From positions 1 to 57,355 of the IMG/VR virus record IMGVR_UViG_3300044648_000391: a DNA stretch of 57,355 nt. One strand, 5' to 3'. Source of the stretch: a virus (taxonomy: Duplodnaviria; Caudoviricetes). The notes beneath the pieces are model-generated. The model saw only the letters and a program-made list of their open reading frames with translations, made no database searches and was not told the DNA's origin. Positions within the stretch are counted from its first letter, which is position 1, and every line of letters starts with the position of its first letter. Positions 4,755 to 57,355 of this stretch are shown here, piece by piece. The position numbers were made by a program, and so were the translations under genes.

Positions 4755-4831
4755 GTTGGGGGTAGTTCAGTTGGCAGAACCCCGGGTTGTGATTTCGGTA
4801 GTCGCGGGTTCGAGTCCCGTCCCTCACCCCA
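4755..4831 (+). tRNA. tRNA-His(GTG)
   Basis: Loop TTGTGAT, G-1:C73, encoded CCA; U1-C72 mismatch. Confidence 0.9.
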
Positions 4832-6895: not shown

Positions 6896-6901
6896 AATCA
6901 C

Positions 6902-7099
6902 GGAGCCAAGTGCGCGGACGATGACGCGCTATACCTTGGGGAGTGGTAAAGTAGATGAGGTGGGAAGCTGTGTGCCTACCAAGAGACCGCCGAGAGTTGG
7001 CAGAGATGCACAGTCTTTGCTAACTTGTAAACTCTTTGGCTAGCAGCCAATAAAATCGGAAAATTCTACGGCCCGGTTCAATTCCGGGATGGCTCCACC
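6902..7099 (+). ncRNA. Long tRNA-like structured RNA, copy A
   Basis: GGAGCCA/TGGCTCC acceptor plus ACC; T-arm CCCGG-TTCAATT-CCGGG; internal 12-bp stem; no ORF. Confidence 0.75.
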
Positions 7100-7158
7100 T
7101 TATACACTGTAACGACATATCGTAACAACATGTCGACAGAAGCAGGAAGTACCGACAC

Positions 7159-8717: not shown

Positions 8718-9170
8718 ATGAAATTGAAACCTACGTTAACTGGAATATTGTTATTCTCAAACGCTGCTGCATATACGGGTATAAATAAGGATAATTATAA
8801 AGAAAAATTATGCGGACCTGATTTGTTTGTAGTTACAAATCCTGAGCATCCGCCTAGGGGCCGTCATTCTCTTAGCGGGGCTGATGCTGATAACTTTAGA
8901 ACAATTGAGTTTAATTACGCTCAGTATTGTACTAAATTGGCTACTTACAACCGTATGCTTGATAAAAAGGAAAAGTGTGATTCAGAGCCTGAAGATTGCA
9001 CCCAGAAGGCATACATTCAAACACAAGTTGATAATGCTGGGATAGACTTAGCAAATACTTGCTTCCAGCTAGAGTCAAATAAAAAACGTAGCAAGCACAT
9101 GTGGGACGATATCATGATTAAGCGCAAGGAGTGCATTCATGTTACGCCCATAAGCACAGGTCCTAGGTAG
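8718..9170 (+). CDS. Cys-rich exported protein
   Basis: Signal peptide MKLKPTLTGILLFSNAAA, several Cys, AGGAG RBS. Confidence 0.65.
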   Translation: MKLKPTLTGILLFSNAAAYTGINKDNYKEKLCGPDLFVVTNPEHPPRGRHSLSGADADNFRTIEFNYAQYCTKLATYNRMLDKKEKCDSEPEDCTQKAYIQTQVDNAGIDLANTCFQLESNKKRSKHMWDDIMIKRKECIHVTPISTGPR

Positions 9171-9222
9171 TCCGTGAGTGACTTTTGGGCTGGATTTATT
9201 GTCTGCCTAATCTTGTCTCTAT

Positions 9223-9276
9223 CTTGTCTCTGTTAGCTTTTTGCCTTTTCAATCAGGCAAGGTTAGCAGAGACAGG
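9223..9276 (+). promoter_or_regulatory. Long hairpin upstream of RNA ligase 1
   Basis: 9223-9238 pairs with 9261-9276; TTGCCT/AGGCAA inner stem. Confidence 0.5.
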
Positions 9277-9290
9277 CAAACCTCAATGGT

Positions 9291-10379
9291 GTGAGAAGTC
9301 TGGTTATGGCAATTGAATATATTTCATTAATGCATGACAAAATACAAAAGTTTGACATTAGCTATGCTGAAGATTTAATTGCTGATGGATGGATAAGACG
9401 TAGCGCTCATCCTTCGGGTGAACTTTTTATTTATAACTATACCGAAAAGACAGTCTACGAAAAGTTTTGGAATCAATATACTTTACAATGTCGAGGATTA
9501 ATCACTGACATAGAAGGTAATATCATTGCGCGACCATTTCCTAAGATTTTTAATGTAGAAGAGCTAGATAGTTTACCTAATGAGCCTTACGATGTTTACG
9601 AAAAACTAGATGGGTCCCTAGGTATTCTTTATTTTTATAAAGATAAGCCCTATATAGCGACCAGAGGGTCCTTTACAGGCGAGCAAGCGGTTGTTGCTAA
9701 TGAAATGCTTCAGAAATTAGATACTAGTGCATTTAGAAAAGGTCTTACCTATTTGTTTGAAATTATTTACCCAGAAAATAGAATAGTCGTAAATTATGGG
9801 GATGAGCGTTCGTTGCGATTAATTGGTCTTGTGGTTACAGCAACCGGTGAAGATATTTCCGACCTAGATGTTCAAGGATATGGCAGATTTCCTCACATTA
9901 CTGCGCTTAATCCTTCTGTTCCAGCGCTACAAGCTTTAAATATCCAAAACAAAGAAGGCTTTGTCCTTAGATTTAAGAGCGGTATCCGCGTTAAAGTAAA
10001 ATTTAAAGACTATGTTATGTTGCATAGCATTATTACTGAAATGACGGCGCGTAAGGTATGGGAAGCGGTTAAGAGTAATAAGTCATTTGATGAGTTTATT
10101 AAAAACATTCCAGACGAAATATTTGGGTGGATCAAAGCTAAGGAAAATTACTTCAAGGAACAATACGCCTTAATAGAGAGCAAAGCAAAAGCAGACCTTA
10201 ATAAGATAATGGGTGAATACCATGAAAACCGAAAAAGTGTTGCTATGATGATTAAGAATTGTGATAACCCGCATGTACTGTTTAGAATGTTCGATGATAA
10301 AGATTATAGCGAATGTATTTGGAAGACACTTGAACCTGAGCACGAACTACCTATACTTGACACACAAAAAAACACATGA
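9291..10379 (+). CDS. T4 Rnl1-like RNA ligase
   Basis: CRGLI, ARPFPKIFN, motif I EKLDGS, ATRGSF, YLFEIIYPENRIVV, EGFVL, KVK. Confidence 0.92.
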   Translation: MRSLVMAIEYISLMHDKIQKFDISYAEDLIADGWIRRSAHPSGELFIYNYTEKTVYEKFWNQYTLQCRGLITDIEGNIIARPFPKIFNVEELDSLPNEPYDVYEKLDGSLGILYFYKDKPYIATRGSFTGEQAVVANEMLQKLDTSAFRKGLTYLFEIIYPENRIVVNYGDERSLRLIGLVVTATGEDISDLDVQGYGRFPHITALNPSVPALQALNIQNKEGFVLRFKSGIRVKVKFKDYVMLHSIITEMTARKVWEAVKSNKSFDEFIKNIPDEIFGWIKAKENYFKEQYALIESKAKADLNKIMGEYHENRKSVAMMIKNCDNPHVLFRMFDDKDYSECIWKTLEPEHELPILDTQKNT

Positions 10380-10385
10380 TACATT
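10357..10385 (+). promoter_or_regulatory. Near-consensus sigma70 promoter with extended -10
   Basis: TTGACA-17 nt-TACATT with TG at 10377-10378. Confidence 0.75.
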
Positions 10386-10392
10386 ACCCGCC

Positions 10393-10740
10393 AGAATGCA
10401 TAGGAGTTGGGTCGGCTCCTGAGAGCTAGTCGTTAGGTAAATTCTCGAGCATTCTTACTAGTCTCTGTAACCGGTGAGCCGTACATCCGACGGGGTGTAC
10501 TCATTGTTTTGCAGCCAAGGCGAGCCATGTACGGTGAACCGTGCTTTAACCTTCTGGTAGGGAGGGTGGTTCACAAAACCTTGGAAGTCGCAAGCCGTAA
10601 GGGTGAGGGGGATAGCGGGTGGGTTTAAAGCGTATACGCTGTCCGTAAGCTCTAGGCAACTAGGCACTAGCTACGCTAAAAATAGTTTTACCACGGTACA
10701 TACTAGTCGGCATAAACGTCATCTCGAATTCCGGCCCGTC
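10393..10740 (+). ncRNA. Candidate large structured RNA (~350 nt)
   Basis: GC-rich gap without a sense ORF; many G-U-containing stems and GNRA loops; starts at the predicted +1. Confidence 0.7.
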
Positions 10741-10758
10741 TATTCTTTACGGTGAGCT

Positions 10759-11550
10759 ATGTTTTCAAAAATTAAAAGATATCTGCAAGATAAATTCTTC
10801 GATAAATACATTCCGTTGAACAAAGCAATTAAAGAGCTGTACAAGCTTGAAAAAAGCCTGATGCCTGGTAATGTGCCTGTAGGGGGGTTATGGGCGTGGA
10901 ATGCTTCAGAGGAATACAAGATTGTCCGAGAGTACTACCTTTTTAATCGGGGGTTGCAGCACCGCCTTTATGGTAAATTGAATCCTGACATATCGATAAA
11001 AAATAATTTCTTTCATATTGGTTGTGGCAGCCTACCTGCCTGGTCAGTAACCAATGAAACGGGTAAAAGAAATAGTACTAATATCCATATAAGCCATGTT
11101 TGGCGTGGTAATAATATTGTTGTTTACAAATATCAGAAACACGATCCATCTTTTTTTATCCCAAGCTCAATGTATATGACTGACATTACTGAATCTAAAA
11201 GAACATATATAGTTGCAATACATGACGTATCCGTAAAGCGTTCTCATCTTAGACATCTAGTGGATATCATTAAACAAGAGGCAGCAGAGTCACCAAGCAC
11301 TACCGAACACAAAGAGGATTTAAAACAAATCAGAAAAAGACGTAAGCGTGAGAAGCGACGATATAAAAACTCTGCAAAGTATAAAAAACGTAGGTTAGAA
11401 CTCATAGTTGATAAGAGAATACAGAAGACGGAGGCAGGTTTCCGAAAGCAGTGCTGGTTGTTTAAAGATATGTTTAATATACTCAAAGGGCACAACGATG
11501 AGTCGCATAAACCTATGTCGTATTCGCCTTCATGGGGTCCTGGTAAGTGA
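10759..11550 (+). CDS. Hypothetical protein with Arg/Lys-rich tract
   Basis: 263 aa; RKRRKREKRRYKNSAKYKKRR. Confidence 0.6.
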   Translation: MFSKIKRYLQDKFFDKYIPLNKAIKELYKLEKSLMPGNVPVGGLWAWNASEEYKIVREYYLFNRGLQHRLYGKLNPDISIKNNFFHIGCGSLPAWSVTNETGKRNSTNIHISHVWRGNNIVVYKYQKHDPSFFIPSSMYMTDITESKRTYIVAIHDVSVKRSHLRHLVDIIKQEAAESPSTTEHKEDLKQIRKRRKREKRRYKNSAKYKKRRLELIVDKRIQKTEAGFRKQCWLFKDMFNILKGHNDESHKPMSYSPSWGPGK

Positions 11551-11984
11551 AATGGGCATGGGCAGAAGACTACATTGCAAAGCCAAACGGCTGGGTAATT
11601 CTTGATTATAGTAGGAGTAAGAAACAAGTGTGGAAAGGGCCTGTTAAAATTAAATTGATTGCTGATTATGTGTTTCCGTTTAAACCCTCAATATTTACTA
11701 CTGAAGCCCCAAAAGTTGACAGCAAGGGGTATTTTACTTTTCGCAGGGATATAGAGGATGATAATTACGAAATGACTTACCATTTTTTTAAGATTTTAAA
11801 TTTAAAAGAAGAAATGCCCTTTAGCGATATTGAAAAATTTTTACATATGAAAAAGTTCGGAATATTAGCAGACATTAAGGTACGCCCAGAATACACTTAC
11901 GAACTTTCGAAAGCTCTAAAGGAATATGGCATTGAAACTAACTTAGTTCACCCTGAACAATACTGCAAGATTGAAATAGAATGA
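11547..11984 (+). CDS. Hypothetical protein
   Basis: 145 aa, 4-nt overlaps with both neighbours. Confidence 0.65.
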   Translation: MKWAWAEDYIAKPNGWVILDYSRSKKQVWKGPVKIKLIADYVFPFKPSIFTTEAPKVDSKGYFTFRRDIEDDNYEMTYHFFKILNLKEEMPFSDIEKFLHMKKFGILADIKVRPEYTYELSKALKEYGIETNLVHPEQYCKIEIE

Positions 11985-12259
11985 CAACTTTTGCATTACA
12001 AATAGACCCACGCGACCTGCGCATTGATATTTTTAGCGATTCTGGCGCGATGGTTAAAAACAAGTTAGGTATAAAAACTATTCGTATAACGCATTTACCA
12101 TCTGGCGAAGTCACAGAATGTGGTGACACATGCTCTAGGCATCCTAATATCTCCGCATGGAATATAGACCGAAAAAAATGTGCTATATCTCAGTTAAAGC
12201 AGAAGTTAAACGACAGTATCAAAGCTAAGCAATCAGGGGCAGGAAATGGAAGAAGTTAA
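11981..12259 (+). CDS. Class I release-factor domain-3-like protein lacking GGQ
   Basis: IDPRDLRIDIF..SGA..IRITHLPSGEVTEC..SRHPN..AISQLKQKL. Confidence 0.75.
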   Translation: MTTFALQIDPRDLRIDIFSDSGAMVKNKLGIKTIRITHLPSGEVTECGDTCSRHPNISAWNIDRKKCAISQLKQKLNDSIKAKQSGAGNGRS

Positions 12260-13394
12260 AAGAAAGCTAGCATCAATTCGGGTTATATCTGAAATCAAGC
12301 CGATAGAAGGTGCGGATAACATAGAGCTTGCTATTGTTGATGGCTGGCAGTGCGTGGTTAAGAAAGGTGATTTTGAGGCTGGCAATTTATGTGTTTATTT
12401 TGAAATAGATTCATTCTTGCCTATACGCCCAGAGTTTGAATTCCTCCGCAAGTCTTCGTATAAGAAGATGGGTAATAAAGAGGGATTTAGGCTTAAAACG
12501 ATTAGGCTTAGAGGTCAGATATCGCAGGGATTGGTGTTAAGGATAGGATTCTTAACATATAATGCGAAAAGGAGTACCTTATATTTCTCGTTAGAAGGAG
12601 ACATTTTGCGTACTATACCGGCATATCCAAATTTATGCTCACAAGCCATTACTCTGAGCGACAAGGAGTATGAAGAATTTAAGCGTAATAGTCTCGGGGG
12701 AACCGACCTTACAGAAGTTTTAGGTATCGAAAAATACGAACCACCCATCCCCGCATGTTTAGCCGGAAAGGTTAAGGGCAACTTTCCGTCATTTATCCGT
12801 AAAACAGACTTAGAGCGTGTACAGAATATCTGGGGTGACATAAAAGACCGTATGGAATCATTTGAGGTGACGGTTAAGCTAGATGGTACAAGCTGTACGT
12901 TTTATTTGAAAGATGGGGTATTCGGTGTCTGTTCACGTAACCTAGAGCTAAAGGAAGAAGAGAACAACACTTACTGGAAGATGGCCAGAAAATACAATAT
13001 TGAGCAGCTGCTTAGAGATTGTGGCCAAAACCTAGCACTACAGGGCGAAATCATTGGGGAAGGTATACAAGGCAATCCTGAGGGTATTCAGGGGCAAGAA
13101 TTCTACTTGTTTGATATTTGGGATATTGATAACCATCGATATTTAATGCCGCTTGAAAGGGTTTTGTTATGGACTGATAAGTTTAACTCGATACCCTGGT
13201 GTCCGTATACAGAAGAGCGTGGACTTAGCTTCGACAAGGATTTATCACACCTAGATTTAAACGAATTCCTAGGATATGCAAATGGCAAGTCATTACATGC
13301 TGATATGCGGGAAGGGATTGTATTTAAGTCAAACGATTCCGACCTAAGATTTAAGGTTATATCAAATGAATATTTATTAAAGAAGGGTGATTAA
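12246..13394 (+). CDS. RNA ligase, DRB0094/Rnl5 family
   Basis: N-terminal RKLASIRVI..IEGADNIE..GWQCVVKKG..YFEIDS OB module; KLDGTS, VCSRN, LQGE, FDI, REGIVFK, FKVIS. Confidence 0.93.
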   Translation: MEEVKRKLASIRVISEIKPIEGADNIELAIVDGWQCVVKKGDFEAGNLCVYFEIDSFLPIRPEFEFLRKSSYKKMGNKEGFRLKTIRLRGQISQGLVLRIGFLTYNAKRSTLYFSLEGDILRTIPAYPNLCSQAITLSDKEYEEFKRNSLGGTDLTEVLGIEKYEPPIPACLAGKVKGNFPSFIRKTDLERVQNIWGDIKDRMESFEVTVKLDGTSCTFYLKDGVFGVCSRNLELKEEENNTYWKMARKYNIEQLLRDCGQNLALQGEIIGEGIQGNPEGIQGQEFYLFDIWDIDNHRYLMPLERVLLWTDKFNSIPWCPYTEERGLSFDKDLSHLDLNEFLGYANGKSLHADMREGIVFKSNDSDLRFKVISNEYLLKKGD

Positions 13395-13663
13395 TGGAAT
13401 CCATACTTAACGATGTGTTTGATATAAAGATAACAGCCCATGCACCCTATAAGGACACTAACATTACGCTCTATCGGATAAGTTTTAAGGCGGGGAGATT
13501 GTATAGTTATGAATTCTCTATCTGTAAGAAATACAATCGTATGGAGTGTGACTTATTTTGCAAGGGTCTAGAAGAATCAATCCGAACGCTTATAAGATGC
13601 ATGTTAGAAGATATGGCCAGGGCTATTGGCGGAACGCCTTTATCCAAGCTTGATAAATCGTGA
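13394..13663 (+). CDS. Hypothetical protein
   Basis: Translationally coupled to the ligase. Confidence 0.55.
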   Translation: MESILNDVFDIKITAHAPYKDTNITLYRISFKAGRLYSYEFSICKKYNRMECDLFCKGLEESIRTLIRCMLEDMARAIGGTPLSKLDKS

Positions 13664-13678
13664 TATAATACACATAAT

Positions 13679-13755
13679 AGCGGGGTGGAGCAGTCTGGCA
13701 GCTCGCCTGCCTCATAAGCAGGAGGTCGCAGGTTCAAATCCTGCCTCCGCTACCA
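13679..13755 (+). tRNA. tRNA(CAT) with initiator-like body
   Basis: AGCGGGGTGGAGCAGTCTGGCAGCTCG, loop CTCATAA, CCA; TATAAT at 13664. Confidence 0.92.
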
Positions 13756-13889
13756 AATATAATTGGAGGGTTAAAAATGAATCAAGATGACGTTAAACAA
13801 GTAGAGCAGGATTCTTTCAATATGGATATTTTATCTGAGAAAGAGTCAGATATTGCACAAGAAAAGTATTTTGGGTAAGGGGATAAGTT

Positions 13890-14285
13890 ATGATACGTTT
13901 TACAGCAATTGACACGATTAATTTTGAAAATGATTTAGAAAAGGATAAGTTCTTTCAGGCTCTCGTTGGTAAGTATCTTATCTTTCGAGACCAGTGCTGC
14001 GACTTTGTCGGTAAGTTAATAGAGCAAGATGTTAACAGAAGATGGCGAGATAATTTTTATTTACTTGGAGATGTAATCTATGTTCCAAATTTGTTTAATG
14101 AATACGTAAATTATTTTTGGCTGTGTGACACCGAAAGGAAAGCGGGAAATGGCATTCTACTATTTAACACAAAAGAGCCGATTTATTTTGAACGTTTAGA
14201 TATAGATATTTTACCGATTAAGCAACCTTATGGTATTTTGGATGACAACGAAGCGTTAGCTAAAAAGCTTTTGGGTAACGTTTAG
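13890..14285 (+). CDS. Hypothetical protein
   Basis: 131 aa ORF. Confidence 0.6.
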   Translation: MIRFTAIDTINFENDLEKDKFFQALVGKYLIFRDQCCDFVGKLIEQDVNRRWRDNFYLLGDVIYVPNLFNEYVNYFWLCDTERKAGNGILLFNTKEPIYFERLDIDILPIKQPYGILDDNEALAKKLLGNV

Positions 14286-14298
14286 CATCAACAATATA

Positions 14299-14376
14299 CT
14301 GAGAGTAGCGCAGCTTGGGTAGCGTACCTCCCTTGGAAGGAGGTGGTCGTTGGTTCAAATCCAACCTCTCAGACCA
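14299..14376 (+). tRNA. tRNA-Pro(TGG)
   Basis: CTGAGAG/CTCTCAG, loop CTTGGAA, CCA. Confidence 0.93.
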
Positions 14377-14377
14377 A

Positions 14378-14462
14378 GCCCTGTTGGTGGAATTGGCAGA
14401 CACAGCGGGCTTAGAACCCGCCGTAGCAATACATCTCGGTTCAAGTCCGAGGCAGGGTACCA
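14378..14462 (+). tRNA. tRNA-Leu(TAG)
   Basis: Long variable arm, loop CTTAGAA, CCA. Confidence 0.93.
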
Positions 14463-14719
14463 GGTTTCTTAAGCCCATAGTAATAATTGGCATAAGTATT
14501 TAACACGCTCTTTCCAAAGATAAGGCCCGCGTCAAAACTTTCCCTCGGAAAATTAGTCACAATAATACTCGCCATTACATTACCCAGCAGGTTAATAGCC
14601 GTACCAACTGACTCCTTCTTTACGATTTCATGCAAAGACTTGCAAAGCACATCTCTGCGCTTTGCTTCTTCTGGTGTAACCTCAACCTCTTGGATATCGG
14701 ATTGAGACTTGTCAGTCAT
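14441..14719 (-). CDS. Hypothetical protein
   Basis: Coupled to the HigA-like gene; 3' end overlaps tRNA-Leu on the opposite strand. Confidence 0.55.
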   Translation of the reverse strand: MTDKSQSDIQEVEVTPEEAKRRDVLCKSLHEIVKKESVGTAINLLGNVMASIIVTNFPRESFDAGLIFGKSVLNTYANYYYGLKKPGTLPRT

Positions 14720-15008
14720 CCTCCGATGGTTCACTTACTTCATTCTCAGATTCAGAGCTGCTATTACTCGATGCGTAATCCTTCCTTACGCTAGTCCAGT
14801 AGTTGTAGTCTTTACCTTCAACATTCAGGCTAGCAAGCTTCTTTGCCATTTTATCAGTCAAAGTAGTCCTGCCTTTTATGGCGGACCTAATGGTGCTTTC
14901 ATTAACGCCTAACTTCTCGGCTAATTGGTAATTTGTTAGCTTAAGCTCTTCTTTAAAGCTTCTAAGCGCATCACCTGGTGATATTGGTTTAATGTTATCG
15001 TTTGACAT
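14712..15008 (-). CDS. HigA-like HTH antitoxin/regulator
   Basis: PISPGDAL...LTNYQLAEKLGV...IKGRTTLTDKMAKKLA...YW. Confidence 0.7.
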   Translation of the reverse strand: MSNDNIKPISPGDALRSFKEELKLTNYQLAEKLGVNESTIRSAIKGRTTLTDKMAKKLASLNVEGKDYNYWTSVRKDYASSNSSSESENEVSEPSEDD

Positions 15009-15026
15009 ATTGCCCCCTATTGTTAA

Positions 15027-16187
15027 TTAATACCCTTTCCAATTAATAATTGGTTTTAAATGCCTTAAAACCTTAACACTTGCCTGCTGAAGCTCCATAA
15101 CCTCAAAGATATTCTTGTAAGCCATTGGGCTTTCATCTATCGTCTCTTGGTTAACGGGTGCTACAATTCCGCGCATCTTATCACGAAACTCATCCATACT
15201 TATAATCTTTCTAGCCTGCCCTCGGCTTAATGCTCTGCCAGCCCCATGCGAAGAGCTATTGAGAAAATCTGCATTCCCCAAACCTTCTACTAAAAAGCAG
15301 CCATCTTTCATGTTGGCGGGTATAACACCCCGCTCACCCTTTTCTGAAGAAGTAGCGCCCTTTCGATGCAGATAAACATTAGGTTGAACCTCAATGCAGT
15401 GATTATGATTCTTGTTAGTCCAGAGATTCTTTGTAGTATCGTATTCAACCCCACAAATAATAAAAATGGCAGCCTCTACCTTCTTCGCCATCGACAATCT
15501 ATTGAGCAATGCAAACTTTAAGCAATAATCTTGATAAATCATGTACTCTTTCTTAATCTCTTCATTCTGGATAGCATACGTTGCCTCAAATCCCTTATCG
15601 AGACCCGATACAAGCTTCATAAAGCATGTACCTATGGTGTGACCAACCCCTCGTGAACCGCTGTGTATTACGAGCCAGGTTTCGTTCTTGTATTCAAGTA
15701 TTTCAATAAAATGGTTGCCAGAACCAAGAGTGCCCAGGTTTTTAAGAGACCTATCGTTCACTTGGCGTAAAAGCCCAGATAATAAATTGCAGGAAGACAA
15801 CTTATTAAGTTTATCTAAATCGTTTTGCATACCTGCTTTGAAGTAAATATTGTCTCCTGCCTTATTAAAACCACCCATACCCATTGGAATTGAGCGGTTA
15901 ACTTCTTTAAATAACGCCACCGCATTACGCTTAATGCTTTCTTGGGCTTTCTTGTCTTCCGATATCTTAACTGCAATCATGCCGCAACCAATGTCATAAC
16001 CAACCCAGGCAGGCACAATCGCACCCGTGGTTTTAATAACACTACCAATGGGTGCTACATACCCGCTATGCGCATCTGGCATTAGGGCTGCTTCTGTTAC
16101 AAAATCATGCGCGCAGCATTCGTCAAACTGCTTCTTGGCGCTTTCTTCGAGTGACGCTATGTTTGCGTGTATGCTTATTTTTTTCAT
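15027..16187 (-). CDS. rtcB: RtcB RNA ligase
   Basis: MPDAHSGY, GYDIGCGM, LGTLGSGNHFIE, HSGSRG, HNH, HRKGA, SHGAGR, DESPMAYK. Confidence 0.96.
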   Translation of the reverse strand: MKKISIHANIASLEESAKKQFDECCAHDFVTEAALMPDAHSGYVAPIGSVIKTTGAIVPAWVGYDIGCGMIAVKISEDKKAQESIKRNAVALFKEVNRSIPMGMGGFNKAGDNIYFKAGMQNDLDKLNKLSSCNLLSGLLRQVNDRSLKNLGTLGSGNHFIEILEYKNETWLVIHSGSRGVGHTIGTCFMKLVSGLDKGFEATYAIQNEEIKKEYMIYQDYCLKFALLNRLSMAKKVEAAIFIICGVEYDTTKNLWTNKNHNHCIEVQPNVYLHRKGATSSEKGERGVIPANMKDGCFLVEGLGNADFLNSSSHGAGRALSRGQARKIISMDEFRDKMRGIVAPVNQETIDESPMAYKNIFEVMELQQASVKVLRHLKPIINWKGY

Positions 16188-21457: not shown

Positions 21458-22033
21458 ATGTATTGTAAACATCATGAAAATAGACGACAAAATGCCAGTA
21501 AATTATTCGGTATCAAACACGTTCATAAAAACGGTGGCGGTGATTTAGATGGTCCTCGTGTTCGAAAAAACTATGGGGGTATATTAGATGCTTCCCAGGG
21601 TCAACCAGCGGTTAGAGATGCTAATAGAATGCTCATGGGTTCTGCACAAAGTATGGGCCTTAAAAGAGGCGGTCACGCTCACTTAAGCAGCCATAAAAGA
21701 GAAATGCGTAAATTACATGATACGCATAGCATGAAAGGTTTTAACCACAATTTCGAGTCACGTTCACACGGCAGTGATGCCAAGGTGAAACGATTAGCAT
21801 CCCGTGCGCCGCATTCTAATGTAAAGGAAATGGGGATGAAAGCGATGTCTAAAGACCACTTTGATTTTGGCCGCGAAAAAAGCAAGGTTGAAAGACGTGC
21901 GCGCTTTAAAGAAGAGCCGAGAGCTAAATTTGCAGTTGGCGGGGCGGGTAAAATTCGGTTAGGACAAATGACATTGAGCGGTAAACCTATTCCGCCACCA
22001 GGGAAAAGACATGGTTCTAGAAAGTTTCATTAA
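21458..22033 (+). CDS. Basic head-region protein with repeated GG motifs
   Basis: HKNGG, KNYGG, LKRGG, FAVGG. Confidence 0.6.
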   Translation: MYCKHHENRRQNASKLFGIKHVHKNGGGDLDGPRVRKNYGGILDASQGQPAVRDANRMLMGSAQSMGLKRGGHAHLSSHKREMRKLHDTHSMKGFNHNFESRSHGSDAKVKRLASRAPHSNVKEMGMKAMSKDHFDFGREKSKVERRARFKEEPRAKFAVGGAGKIRLGQMTLSGKPIPPPGKRHGSRKFH

Positions 22034-22244
22034 GCATTATCTCGATAGATTAAGAGATAAACAGAATCTTTATAAAGACCGGTTTTTTAATGGAAATATA
22101 AAAAACTGGGAAGATTATAAAGAAACCAATGCAAAGCTTTTTGGTTTAAAAGAGGCAGAGGAAATGGCGCTGTCTCTTTATGATTCTATGGTTAACAAAG
22201 TAGATTTCAAGGAGAGAAAGATTGAAGAACCGGAGCGTTACTAG
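22011..22244 (+). CDS. Hypothetical head-operon protein
   Basis: 77 aa, in operon. Confidence 0.65.
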   Translation: MVLESFIKHYLDRLRDKQNLYKDRFFNGNIKNWEDYKETNAKLFGLKEAEEMALSLYDSMVNKVDFKERKIEEPERY

Positions 22245-24700: not shown

Positions 24701-24966
24701 TTGCAGTTTGAAAAAAAGTTGTGTACTATATACAAATTAGTGTATAGTGCATGGTATGCGTGGGTTAGATACCCCCCTTTGATGCTCCTAGACATTATCT
24801 GACTCACGCAACCGAGAGAGCCAAACTCGATAAAAGGGCTGACGCGAGAGCGTCCACCGGAAGATAAGCAGGCGGACCTGAGCCATAGTTTCTTCTCGTT
24901 AATCATTGAAAACGGTCGGTAGTCAATACCTATTTTTTTTAACAAAGATTAACTTGGAGATGATTT
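24701..24966 (+). promoter_or_regulatory. Internal promoter and structured leader of the capsid genes
   Basis: TTGCAG-17-TACTAT overlapping an inverted repeat; 15-bp stem TGCGTGGGTTAGATA/TATCTGACTCACGCA; GACGC-GAGA-GCGTC. Confidence 0.55.
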
Positions 24967-27283: not shown

Positions 27284-27547
27284 ATGAACATGGAGTTGAT
27301 TAAAAAAATTGAAAGCAATATTGCAGAGCTAGAAGCAAAAGCCAAGAAAAATGGTGAATTTGTTTCAAATGCGAGTGCCACGATTGAACGTTTAAATTCA
27401 GAGAAGGCCACCATCTTGGATGAAACCAATCGCATTATGGGTGCTATACAAGCTTTTCGTTTCGTTTTAAACGAACAGCAAACGGATGCACCCGTAATGG
27501 AAATTAAATCGAAGCCTAAAAAATCGGAAGAAAAGAAAGATGTCTAA
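27284..27547 (+). CDS. Small coiled-coil protein
   Basis: AAGGAGG RBS. Confidence 0.65.
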   Translation: MNMELIKKIESNIAELEAKAKKNGEFVSNASATIERLNSEKATILDETNRIMGAIQAFRFVLNEQQTDAPVMEIKSKPKKSEEKKDV

Positions 27548-56613: not shown

Positions 56614-57355
56614 ATGAGTAAATTACTCATCAATGAACCGCCGTTAATGGTACTACCCAAATTAGCCAAAGCTATCGGCTTAAACGAAGCTATCGTCCTA
56701 CAACAACTCTACTACTGGCTCAACCACGGCTACGCTGCCGGCCTATGCGGTGGAGAATTACAGACTGATAACAAATCATGTGTTTGGTATAAGAACAGCT
56801 GTGACGGCCTCTTAAAAAGGTTTCCGTTTCTGTCCAAAATGACGCTTCGACGAACACTGACTAGCCTAGAATCGCAAAACCTCATCATCTCCGCCAAGAG
56901 CAGCGCCTCAAAAATGGACCATAGACTGTCCTATTCAATTAACTACCAAACCATCGAAAATATCGAAAAAGCCCTAGGGTGTGAACAAATCGATAACGCC
57001 AAAATGAACACATCGGAAGAAAATCAGGAAGTAGTTGATAATAAAGAAGATTTAGATAAATCTCGATCTGTTCAAAATGAACACATCGATCTGTTCAAAA
57101 TGAACACATCTTCATTAGAGAAGAATGTATTTAATGAAGATAATAAAGAAATATATATATGTGATTCAGGGAATGATTTTGAAAAATCGGGAGAGGCAAA
57201 TAACGAGAGAAGCAACCCCACACCCAAAGCCCCTACCAGGCTCGATAAGCTATTCAACGACTTCTGGACAGCCTATCCAAACAAAAAGTCCAAAGGCGAA
57301 GCGCGTGATGCCTTCCCTAAAGCCCTCTCGGAAGCAGGCTCCCTAGATGCCCTTC
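56614..57355 (+). CDS. Phage replication initiator, N-terminal part (continues to 432)
   Basis: MSKLLINEPPLMVLPKLAKAIGLNEAIVLQQLYYWL; open to the window end; AGGAG RBS. Confidence 0.85.
   Translation, partial: MSKLLINEPPLMVLPKLAKAIGLNEAIVLQQLYYWLNHGYAAGLCGGELQTDNKSCVWYKNSCDGLLKRFPFLSKMTLRRTLTSLESQNLIISAKSSASKMDHRLSYSINYQTIENIEKALGCEQIDNAKMNTSEENQEVVDNKEDLDKSRSVQNEHIDLFKMNTSSLEKNVFNEDNKEIYICDSGNDFEKSGEANNERSNPTPKAPTRLDKLFNDFWTAYPNKKSKGEARDAFPKALSEAGSLDAL
57000..57110 (+). repeat. Iteron-like repeats, probable replication origin
   Basis: Two tandem 23-bp units CGATCTGTTCAAAATGAACACAT (57064, 57087), a partial copy at 57000, then AT-rich DNA. Confidence 0.7.
57229..57355. repeat. Terminal direct repeat, right copy
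   Basis: Identical to 1-127. Confidence 0.97.

What the first reader, a model, noticed from the sequence alone, without database searches (positions are those of the whole stretch)
10393..10740. Large ornate RNA with its own near-consensus promoter, directly after Rnl1
Seen: TTGACA-17-TGnTACATT places +1 at about 10392, where the first helix starts (AGAATGC/GCATTCT enclosing AGGAGTTG/CGGCTCCT). Further stems: GTACATCC-GACG-GGGTGTAC, CCAAGG/CCTTGG, GTACGG-TGAA-CCGTGC, GGATAGCG/CGCTGTCC, CTAG-GCAA-CTAG and CC-GTAA-GG. Two TACTAGTC copies could close a large domain, and GACGGG could pair with CCCGTC at 10735. It is much more GC-rich than its flanks. Established: large phage RNAs such as GOLLD and ROOL occur near tRNA genes. 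I cannot match this one to them, to RNase P or to group I cores. Inference: a new large ncRNA or ribozyme.
Basis: partly seen in the sequence, partly recalled or inferred. Interest (0 to 1): 0.75.

Follow-up and report, generated by a model that had tools for sequence, protein, structure and literature searches.

The report
Orphan structured RNA after phage Rnl1
A 370-base, GC-rich, protein-free stretch behind the best promoter-like site of an uncultivated soil phage probably makes a folded RNA, but it matches no known RNA family and no relative could be found, so its structure and role remain untested.

Summary
Window 10380-10758 is an ORF-poor gap between an Rnl1-type RNA ligase gene and an orphan 263-aa ORF. 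Its GC is 0.51 against about 0.36 in the flanks. It starts just after the only sigma-70-like site in the 57-kb genome with 10/12 matches plus an extended -10 TG. Folding favours the + strand (z -1.86 against +0.63), and 21 of 123 predicted pairs are G-U. Only the central domain (10461-10580) stands out genome-wide, ranking 23 of 2862 windows.

It matches none of the 4227 Rfam families, even at E<=10. No homologue turned up in any search: cultured phages, about 3.5 Mb of loci around Rnl1, Rnl2-like and terminase relatives, 53 whole virus records, 406 bacterial genomes, three k-mer scans, and sequencing runs. Covariation therefore could not be tested.

No terminator or second promoter separates the element from ORF263. 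An internal hairpin is terminator-like, and the last helix reaches the ORF263 ribosome-binding region. My best reading is a transcribed structured leader of the ORF263-Rnl2 operon, possibly processed (0.4). A free-standing ncRNA or ribozyme comes next (0.3). Inert foreign DNA is not excluded (0.2).

The parts
9291..10379 (+). Rnl1-type (T4 RnlA family) RNA ligase gene. Its TGA stop (10377-10379) supplies the TG of the extended -10.
   Evidence: Pfam PF09511 RNA_lig_T4_1, E 1.8e-16. 6151 proteins with E<=0.001 among 7999 scored; best non-self 55% identity; sources name them T4 RnlA family RNA ligase. The C-terminus ends within the range of its relatives.
10357..10385 (+). Sigma-70-like promoter: TTGACA, 17 nt, TGnTACATT. 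Predicted start near 10392.
   Evidence: 10/12, TG yes; the only such site in the genome on either strand; shuffles give a mean of 1.07.
10392..10753 (+). Candidate structured RNA element of about 360 nt. The 5' end is inferred from the promoter; the 3' limit is the end of the last predicted helix.
   Evidence: No ORF over 50 aa on the + strand.
10393..10455 (+). Domain 1: AGAAUGC/GCAUUCU closing two hairpins (AGGAGUUG-GGU-CGGCUCCU and GAGAG...UUCUC).
   Evidence: p 0.94, 0.93, 0.84; z -1.82, 15 of 200 shuffles fold as well.
10465..10514 (+). Domain 2: CUGUAA/UUGCAG, CGGUGAG/CUCAUUG and GUACAUCC-GACG-GGGUGUAC. The scan also flags it as terminator-like (stem 10481-10500, then TCATTGTTTT).
   Evidence: p 0.90-0.94; z -3.05; terminator-like list, 7 found against 4.2 +/- 2.0 in shuffles.
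10515..10584 (+). Domain 3: CCAAGG/CCUUGG and GAGCCAU/GUGGUUC enclosing the hairpins GUACGG-UGAA-CCGUGC and CCUUCU-GGUA-GGGAGG.
   Evidence: p 0.55-0.75; z -2.66. Window 10461-10580 ranks 23 of 2862.
10594..10753 (+). Domain 4: closing helix GCCGUAAGGG/UCUUUACGGU around the hairpins GGAUAGCG...CGCUGUCC, CUAG-GCAA-CUAG, UAGC-UAC-GCUA, UAGU...ACUA and GUCGG...CCGGC. Its 3' strand overlaps the GGU of the SD-like GGUGAG (10751-10756).
   Evidence: p 0.84-1.0. Weak as a unit: 10594-10735 gives z -1.16, with 24 of 200 shuffles as good.
10759..11550 (+). ORF263, an orphan protein gene directly downstream. It is the first gene of an overlapping series: 11547-11984, 11981-12259, 12246-13394, 13394-13663.
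   Evidence: Only itself among 5.8e9 proteins. Besides itself, two weak hits (E 7.5e-5 and 1.9e-4) among 1.84e9 representatives. No Pfam or PHROG family. AF2 mean pLDDT 44.6.

Best explanation
The stretch is transcribed from the promoter at 10357-10385 as the first ~360 nt of the mRNA for the ORF263 / ORF145 / RF-1-domain ORF / Rnl2-like ligase / ORF89 operon, and it folds on the + strand into four helical domains. It most likely acts in cis as a structured leader. Domain 2 is a long hairpin followed by a U-rich run that could stop part of the transcripts early. The closing helix of domain 4 ends 6 nt before the ORF263 AUG and covers part of its weak Shine-Dalgarno-like GGUGAG, so folding could set how much of the operon is made. 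A stable RNA could also be cut out of this leader.

Shown: the sequence features, the strand asymmetry, and the absence of another promoter-like or terminator-like site.

Inferred: transcription, the fold, and any regulation.
For: - The only promoter-like site with 10/12 matches plus TG in the genome lies directly 5' of the element.
- On the + strand there is no promoter-like site between 10386 and 10758. There is no terminator-like site between 10510 and 14500.
- The downstream ORFs overlap or abut one another.
- Domain 2 is listed as terminator-like.
- Helix 10594-10603/10744-10753 has probability 0.88 and abuts the GGUGAG.
- ORF263 has no SD at the usual spacing, whereas 26 of 49 genes have GGAG, GAGG or AGGA upstream.
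- The + strand folds at -117 kcal/mol (z -1.86); the - strand folds at -87.4 (z +0.63). 21 of 123 predicted pairs are G-U.
- In the listing of 12 ORF-free gaps, only the two that hold structural RNAs exceed GC 0.45 (0.502 and 0.471). This element has GC 0.51.
- The RNA and ORF263 are both orphans. Both are absent from the closest complete relative, G049, which keeps the Rnl2-like gene (58%) and TerL (66%). This fits one imported unit.
Against: - No homologue was found, so there is no covariation and no conserved leader-gene pairing.
- No transcript data exist: the single holder listed is a DNA run that may be the source.
- About 360 nt and four domains is long for a bacterial or phage leader. 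It matches no riboswitch or T-box model.
- I found no alternative antiterminator pairing.
- Terminator-like sites are not significantly enriched (7 against 4.2 +/- 2.0), and the U-run after the hairpin is interrupted (TCATTGTTTT).
- Only one domain pair is unusual genome-wide.
- One promoter of this quality is expected by chance per genome.
Confidence: 0.4

Rival explanations
1. It is a free-standing, trans-acting stable RNA of a new family: an RNP scaffold, a ribozyme, a decoy, or a helper of the phage's RNA-repair and translation-rescue set. It would be made from its own strong promoter and released from the longer transcript by processing.
For: - At about 350 nt with several domains, it is in the size range of RNase P RNA, tmRNA and group I introns (that range is recalled).
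- Its GC of 0.51 resembles this genome's tRNAs (0.55-0.62) and the tRNA-like RNA at 6902-7100 (0.50), not its other intergenic gaps (0.31-0.42).
- It has the best promoter-like site in the genome and strand-specific folding.
- The genome is rich in RNA biology: 9 tRNAs, Rnl1, an Rnl2-like ligase and an RF-1-domain ORF, and RtcB.
- It matches none of the 4227 Rfam families, so if real it is a new family.
Against: - No terminator-like site at its 3' end and no separate promoter for ORF263.
- No homologues anywhere searched, so no covariation.
- Overall z is only -1.86, and domain 4 is not better than shuffles.
Confidence: 0.3
2. It has no RNA function. It would be a GC-rich remnant of imported DNA (a decayed gene or junction left by the recombination that brought in Rnl1 and ORF263), with a chance promoter-like site and chance hairpins.
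For: - Singleton: no relative in any collection searched.
- The early region is mosaic against G049.
- One promoter of this quality is expected by chance.
- 18 of the 20 windows starting at 10301-10681 are unremarkable in folding, and whole-element z is -1.86.
Against: - No trace of a decayed gene. Six small ORFs gave no Pfam family at E<=1 other than one E 0.12 fragment. 12,776 ORF translations from the fetched loci gave a best per-query E of 4.4e-5 against the 379-nt target, which is about 0.5 after multiplicity.
- Alternative codes do not open the region.
- The strand asymmetry of folding and the G-U content point to RNA-level selection.
- Compact phage genomes rarely keep 380 nt of inert DNA (general knowledge).
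Confidence: 0.2
3. It is a very divergent member of a known family (RNase P RNA, group I intron, tmRNA, T-box or another riboswitch) that the covariance models miss.
For: By eye and from memory only: GUAAGGGUGA and CGCAAGC resemble the RNase P P9-P11 region; ACAUACUAGUCGGCAUA resembles its P4 3' strand; AGGGUGGU resembles the T-box sequence; UAGUC motifs resemble group I R/S elements. These are leads, not tests.
Against: - No Rfam match at E<=10 in the 651-nt, 205-nt and 191-nt searches apart from chance rows.
- RF00010 and RF00028 gave 0 matches in the genome at E<=10, while the same searches rang in 11 and 8 of 14 control genomes.
- RF00023 matched only T-arms of tRNA genes.
- ARAGORN finds nothing here.
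- The order of the look-alike motifs does not fit RNase P or group I topology (my reading).
- No gene is interrupted: Rnl1 is complete.
- The one BLAST hit to the 'RNase P-like' stretch (G186, 41 nt) lies in a locus with no Rfam family.
Confidence: 0.05
4. It encodes one or more small proteins, for example the 50-aa GTG ORF at 10603-10755, which is in frame with ORF263.
For: The ORFs exist. 10603-10755 is in frame with ORF263 and separated from it by one TGA.
Against: - Non-ATG starts without an SD and no family hits.
- TGA is used as a stop by Rnl1, at the position where relatives also end.
- GC and folding point to RNA.
Confidence: 0.05

Closest known systems
GOLLD and ROOL large ornate RNAs of bacteria and prophages
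   Same: Large, multi-helix, GC-rich non-coding RNA in a phage genome that carries tRNA genes; function unknown. PMC5737381 (passages read) says GOLLD is often near tRNAs and in prophages, that ROOL shares this, and that ROOL averages 581 nt.
   Different: - About 360 nt here.
- No match to any Rfam model.
- Nearest tRNAs are 2.9 and 5.6 kb away.
- No terminator before the next gene.
- A singleton without comparative support, whereas GOLLD and ROOL were defined by covariation.
Structured 5' leaders (riboswitches, T-box, attenuators)
   Same: It lies between a promoter and the first gene of an operon, contains a terminator-like hairpin with a U-rich tail, and has a last helix that touches the ribosome-binding region.
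   Different: - No match to any riboswitch or T-box model.
- Longer and with more domains than usual.
- No competing antiterminator fold identified.
- The ligand or signal is unknown.
RNase P RNA, tmRNA, group I introns (catalytic or RNP RNAs of 300-400 nt)
   Same: Size class and multi-domain layout, with a few short look-alike motifs seen by eye (recalled consensus).
   Different: Covariance models find nothing. There is no interrupted host gene, no tRNA-like ends, and the motif order does not fit.
T4 rnlA-type tRNA-repair modules
   Same: The element is embedded in a set of RNA ligases (Rnl1, Rnl2-like, RtcB) and tRNA genes. That T4 Rnl1 repairs tRNA cut by a host anticodon nuclease is recalled knowledge.
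   Different: I know of no RNA partner for such modules. None of the 160 loci around Rnl1 relatives holds a similar sequence.

Membership tests
Any Rfam 15 family (includes GOLLD, ROOL, HEARO, OLE, raiA, riboswitches, T-box) | Score against the family's covariance model | tested here: not met
   - Gathering threshold: only 9 tRNAs in the window.
- E<=10 on 10250-10900: two chance rows on the minus strand at 10737-10834.
- E<=10 on 10386-10590: one row, E 2.7, a mammalian lncRNA model.
- E<=10 on 10575-10765: none.
Bacterial RNase P RNA | Conserved P4 pseudoknot core and CR-I to CR-V, as captured by RF00010 | tested here: not met
   0 matches at E<=10 in the genome; the same search rang in 11 of 14 control genomes. 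Motif look-alikes seen by eye are out of order.
Group I intron | P3-P9 catalytic core (RF00028) | tested here: not met
   0 matches at E<=10; controls rang in 8 of 14 genomes, only 2 of them over the cut-off, so the model's reach is limited.
Group I intron | It interrupts a host gene whose exons rejoin in frame | tested here: not met
   Rnl1 ends where its relatives end. The ORF263 frame is closed by a TGA at 10753-10755.
tmRNA | tRNA-like acceptor and T-arm ends plus a tag reading frame | tested here: not met
   ARAGORN finds none here. RF00023 matches only tRNA T-arms elsewhere.
GOLLD/ROOL-like kind (large phage RNA next to tRNAs) | Conserved ornate structure supported by covariation in many members | not testable with these tools
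   No homologue was found in any search.
GOLLD/ROOL-like kind (large phage RNA next to tRNAs) | Adjacent to tRNA genes | tested here: not met
   The nearest are tRNA-Met at 13679 and tRNA-His at 4756-4831.
Transcription-attenuating leader | Promoter, then a terminator hairpin with a U-tract before the gene, with mutually exclusive antiterminator pairing | tested here: inconclusive
   The promoter and a terminator-like hairpin are present. No antiterminator alternative was identified. The U-tract is interrupted.
Independent sRNA/ncRNA gene | Own promoter and own terminator | tested here: inconclusive
   A promoter-like site is present. No terminator-like site lies at 10740-10760. The only one is internal, at 10481-10510.

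The most novel reading that the evidence does not exclude
The element is the founding member of a new class of large phage RNA that works with the phage's RNA-repair and ribosome-rescue genes. For example, it could be a ribozyme, a decoy or sponge for a host anticodon nuclease, or a damage-sensing leader that switches on the Rnl2/RF-1-domain operon when tRNAs are cut. It may be partnered with the equally orphan ORF263.
Probability: 0.12. Interest if true: 0.85.

Novelty: new variant of a known kind. Interest (0 to 1): 0.4.

Why it matters
If real, this would be a new family of large structured RNA inside a phage RNA-repair module (Rnl1, Rnl2-like, RtcB, an RF-1-domain protein, nine tRNAs and a tRNA-like RNA). 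I know of no RNA partner or RNA-based regulator for such modules.

Large bacterial and phage RNAs of unknown function (GOLLD, ROOL, OLE, raiA) have repeatedly turned out to have unusual architectures, so new ones are worth finding.

As it stands this is a single sequence from one soil metagenome. Its value is as a lead. It becomes testable once the contigs of the closer relatives seen only as proteins (TerL up to 82% identity, Rnl1 up to 56%) can be read.

Tried and rejected
**Known families.** Rfam at the gathering threshold and at E<=10, on the whole gap and on two halves. RF00010, RF00028 and RF00023 on the genome. ARAGORN. Nothing was found at the locus.

**Homologues by sequence.**
- blastn 'distant' against 50,697 phage records: none.
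- nhmmer (E<=10 to 100) and blastn (word size 7) against 80 plus 80 loci around Rnl1 relatives: none. The best blastn match was 20 nt, E 1.0.
- 80 loci around TerL relatives, 864,560 nt: none.
- 29 loci around Rnl2-like relatives: none.
- 80 bacterial-genome loci, 1,272,863 nt: none.
- BLAST on 5 whole related virus records: 0 of 5.
- BLAST on 5 bacterial genomes: two matches of 16-18 nt at E 0.6-0.9.
- BLAST on 401 genomes of one phylum: 5 of 401 at E<=0.01, all 21-41 nt, about the number expected by chance. Their loci hold no RNA family apart from one tRNA.

**Homologues by structure.** A single-sequence covariance model of 10465-10584 (R1) found only itself (144.3 bits) in 100 sources totalling 717,063 nt. 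It matched 0 of 48 and 0 of 5 virus records.

**k-mer scans.**
- 16-mer in IMG/VR: 14 stretches, none extending beyond 16-17 nt.
- 17-mer in IMG/VR: 0.
- 20-mer in GTDB genomes: 0.

**No positive control.** None of these negative searches had a positive control. The tRNA-like RNA at 6896-7105 also found nothing in the 5 relatives, so the relatives in hand may simply be too distant.

**Anchors.** Rnl1, ORF263 and TerL used as single proteins found no close relative in IMG/VR.

**Sequencing runs.** One holder was listed, a DNA run that may be the source, and no RNA holder. Laying it gave one identical contig and no variants.

**ORF263.** Atlas look-alikes scored <=0.80, with an AcrVA2-like family in 15-19% of cluster members; this is a lead only. 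The AF2 model is too poor to search with.

**Other ideas dropped.**
- Palindrome enrichment: 9 six-mers against a mean of 5.2, reached by 8% of windows.
- Paralogues in the genome: none.
- Decayed gene.
- Recoded stop codons.
- G-quadruplex, iteron and RNase P look-alikes, seen by eye only and not pursued.

**Failed or closed steps.** The literature gave nothing on an RNA next to phage RNA ligases: two searches, listings and abstract starts only.

Full report
**What the window is.** The window is a complete virus record of 57,355 bp with direct terminal repeats. The only sequencing run that holds the stretch is a soil metagenome that may be its source. It carries nine tRNA genes. Near the finding it also carries a set of RNA-repair and rescue genes:
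- an Rnl1-type ligase at 9291-10379 (PF09511, E 1.8e-16);
- an Rnl2-like ligase at 12246-13394 (PF21189 plus PF09414);
- a 92-aa ORF with a sub-threshold RF-1 domain (22.7 bits against a cut-off of 35; E 9.6e-5);
- RtcB on the minus strand at 15027-16187 (phrog_1075, E 7.8e-101).

Genes use Shine-Dalgarno motifs (26 of 49 examined). The phage has no close cultured relative: the best TerL match is 36%. The host is unresolved. The best bacterial-genome TerL match is 47%, on a 10.9-kb contig binned with a Bacteroidota MAG.

*Promoter.* TTGACA-17-TACATT with an upstream TG sits at 10357-10385. In my scan of both strands of the whole genome it is the only site with at least 10 of 12 matches plus the TG. 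Block-shuffled genomes average 1.07 such sites, so quality alone is not significant. What counts is its position, exactly at the 5' edge of the gap.

*Composition.* GC is 0.51 across 10400-10699, against 0.345-0.37 just upstream. In a listing of 12 ORF-free gaps, only the two that contain structural RNAs exceed 0.45. The present gap was not in that listing, because a 69-aa antisense ORF masks it.

*Helices.* All the listed helices appear in the partition-function fold with probabilities of 0.55 to 1.0. The one exception is CC-GUAA-GG, which is replaced by a long-range helix.

**Is it non-coding?** The longest + strand ORF is 50 aa with a GTG start, and the longest on the minus strand is 69 aa.
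- Six small ORFs have no Pfam family at E<=1 except one E 0.12 fragment.
- 12,776 ORF translations from all the loci fetched by then gave nothing significant against the gap after correction for multiplicity.
- Reading TGA as W or TAG as Q does not open it.
- Rnl1 ends where its relatives end, so no gene is interrupted.

**Is it structured?** The + strand folds at -117 kcal/mol (z -1.86; 3 of 100 shuffles as good). The minus strand folds at -87.4 (z +0.63). 21 of 123 predicted pairs are G-U. This explains the asymmetry and points to an RNA-level feature on the + strand.

The fold is modular, with four domains. With boundaries that I chose, domains 2+3 give z -3.16 and the 10606-10648 hairpin gives -4.18. 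Domain 1 (-1.82) and domain 4 (-1.16) are not unusual.

In an unbiased scan of 2862 windows corrected for composition, 10461-10580 ranks 23rd and 10481-10600 ranks 42nd. The remaining windows of the element are ordinary. Several other places in the genome fold better than any window here. The thermodynamic support is therefore real but moderate, and it is concentrated in the middle.

**What it is not.** No Rfam 15 family matches:
- not at the gathering threshold;
- not at E<=10 on the whole gap;
- not at E<=10 on the two halves.

Targeted searches with the RNase P, group I and tmRNA models found nothing at the locus, although the same searches rang in 11, 8 and 14 of 14 control genomes. Motif look-alikes to RNase P, T-box and group I elements that I saw by eye rest on recalled consensus sequences, and they occur in an order that does not fit those architectures. 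I treat them as chance.

**The search for relatives.** This was the main effort, and it failed.
- The element has no blastn match among 50,697 phage records.
- Rnl1 has thousands of relatives, the best non-self at 55%. None of 160 loci around Rnl1 relatives in IMG/VR and metagenomes (identity up to 50%) contains a similar sequence.
- ORF263 is an orphan in 5.8 billion and 1.84 billion protein libraries.
- TerL has relatives up to 82% identical, but those are held only as proteins. The closest readable one is a complete 50.9-kb virus record, G049 (TerL 66%, Rnl2-like 58%). It lacks Rnl1, ORF263 and the element.
- A covariance model of domains 2+3 found only itself in 717 kb of loci and in 53 virus records.
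- Three k-mer scans of whole collections gave only chance matches or nothing.
- BLAST over 406 bacterial genomes gave only short chance matches.

In all, about 3.5 Mb of fetched loci were searched with nhmmer without a hit (one search gives the total). None of these negatives had a positive control. So 'not found in what was searched' is all that can be said.

**How it most likely works.** On the + strand the scan lists no promoter-like site between 10386 and 10758. It lists no terminator-like site between 10510 and 14500. The downstream ORFs overlap one another. Whatever else it does, the element is therefore the 5' part of the transcript that carries ORF263, ORF145, the RF-1-domain ORF, the Rnl2-like ligase and ORF89.

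Three features suggest a cis-acting leader:
- Domain 2 is flagged as terminator-like.
- The closing helix of domain 4 (probability 0.88) ends 6 nt before the AUG and overlaps the GGUGAG.
- That GGUGAG is only 2 nt from the AUG, so ORF263 has no well-spaced Shine-Dalgarno.

I therefore put a structured, possibly regulatory leader first (0.4). The RNA and ORF263 may have been imported as one unit, since both are orphans and both are missing from G049.

A stable trans-acting RNA released by processing comes second (0.3). Its size, its tRNA-like GC content, the strong promoter and the RNA-centred gene neighbourhood favour it. The lack of its own terminator counts against it.

An inert remnant of imported DNA remains possible (0.2). 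A divergent known family (0.05) or small proteins (0.05) are unlikely.

**Comparison with the known.** GOLLD and ROOL are the nearest kind. They are large, ornate RNAs of unknown function, often near tRNAs and in prophages, and ROOL averages 581 nt (PMC5737381, passages read). For the cryo-EM paper 10.1101/2024.12.08.627333 I saw only the listing and the start of the abstract. The present element is smaller, matches neither model, is kilobases from the nearest tRNA, and has no comparative support.

It resembles attenuator or riboswitch leaders in position, but matches none of them. Two full-text searches gave no paper on an RNA partner of phage RNA-ligase modules (listings and abstract starts only). 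Supplements were not consulted.

**Verdict.** The interpretation as 'a new large ncRNA or ribozyme' is partly supported: it is probably a real, transcribed, folded RNA of no known family. However, 'ornate' and 'ribozyme' are unproven, and it is more likely a leader than an independent gene. As a singleton it is a lead, not a discovery.

Noticed in passing
window 6902-7100 (+), in the GC-rich gap 6896-7158: A second unannotated RNA candidate. A 7-bp acceptor-like stem (5' GGAGCCA with 3' UGGCUCC, then ACC) and an adjacent T-arm (CCCGG-UUCAAUU-CCGGG) enclose about 120 extra nt. The layout is tRNA-like or mini-tmRNA-like. MFE is -75.5 kcal/mol with z -3.44; 0 of 200 shuffles fold as well. ARAGORN, Rfam (gathering and E<=10) and RF00023 all miss it. 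No match in 5 related virus records. No convincing tag reading frame was seen by eye.
   Followed up: partly
window 9161-9340 (gap 9171-9290 upstream of Rnl1): The most strongly folding windows of the whole genome after correction for composition (z about -4.2 to -4.4). There is a long hairpin (GTCTCTGTTAGC...GCTAACAGAGAC-like arms) preceded by a tandem ATCTTGTCTCT repeat. It could be a terminator or an operator in front of Rnl1.
   Followed up: no
window 9291-16187: An unusually full RNA-repair and rescue set for a 57-kb phage: Rnl1, an Rnl2-like ligase with a PHA02142 OB domain, RtcB, a 92-aa RF-1-domain (ArfB-like, sub-threshold) ORF, and nine scattered tRNA genes.
   Followed up: partly
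window 10603-11550: The 50-aa GTG ORF at 10603-10755 is in frame with ORF263 and separated from it by a single TGA (10753-10755). Under table 4 they fuse into a 331-aa frame. This is probably coincidence, since TGA ends Rnl1 at the conserved position.
   Followed up: partly
L259/L180 (virus record G049, 50,860 bp, DTR): The closest readable relative (TerL 66%, Rnl2-like 58%) keeps the Rnl2-like gene about 5 kb upstream of TerL, as here. It lacks Rnl1, ORF263 and the element. The RF-1-domain ORF (35%) and ORF150 (30%) sit elsewhere. The early region is mosaic.
   Followed up: partly
protein P0235: A TerL relative of 894 aa (46% identity) carries PF07591, PF14528 and PF14890 hits. This suggests an intein-type insertion in the terminase of a related phage.
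   Followed up: no
window 24701-24840, 57021-57180, 22021-22180, 27381-27520: Other windows with strongly negative composition-corrected folding energy (z -3.1 to -4.4). They were not examined and are likely terminators or intergenic hairpins.
   Followed up: no
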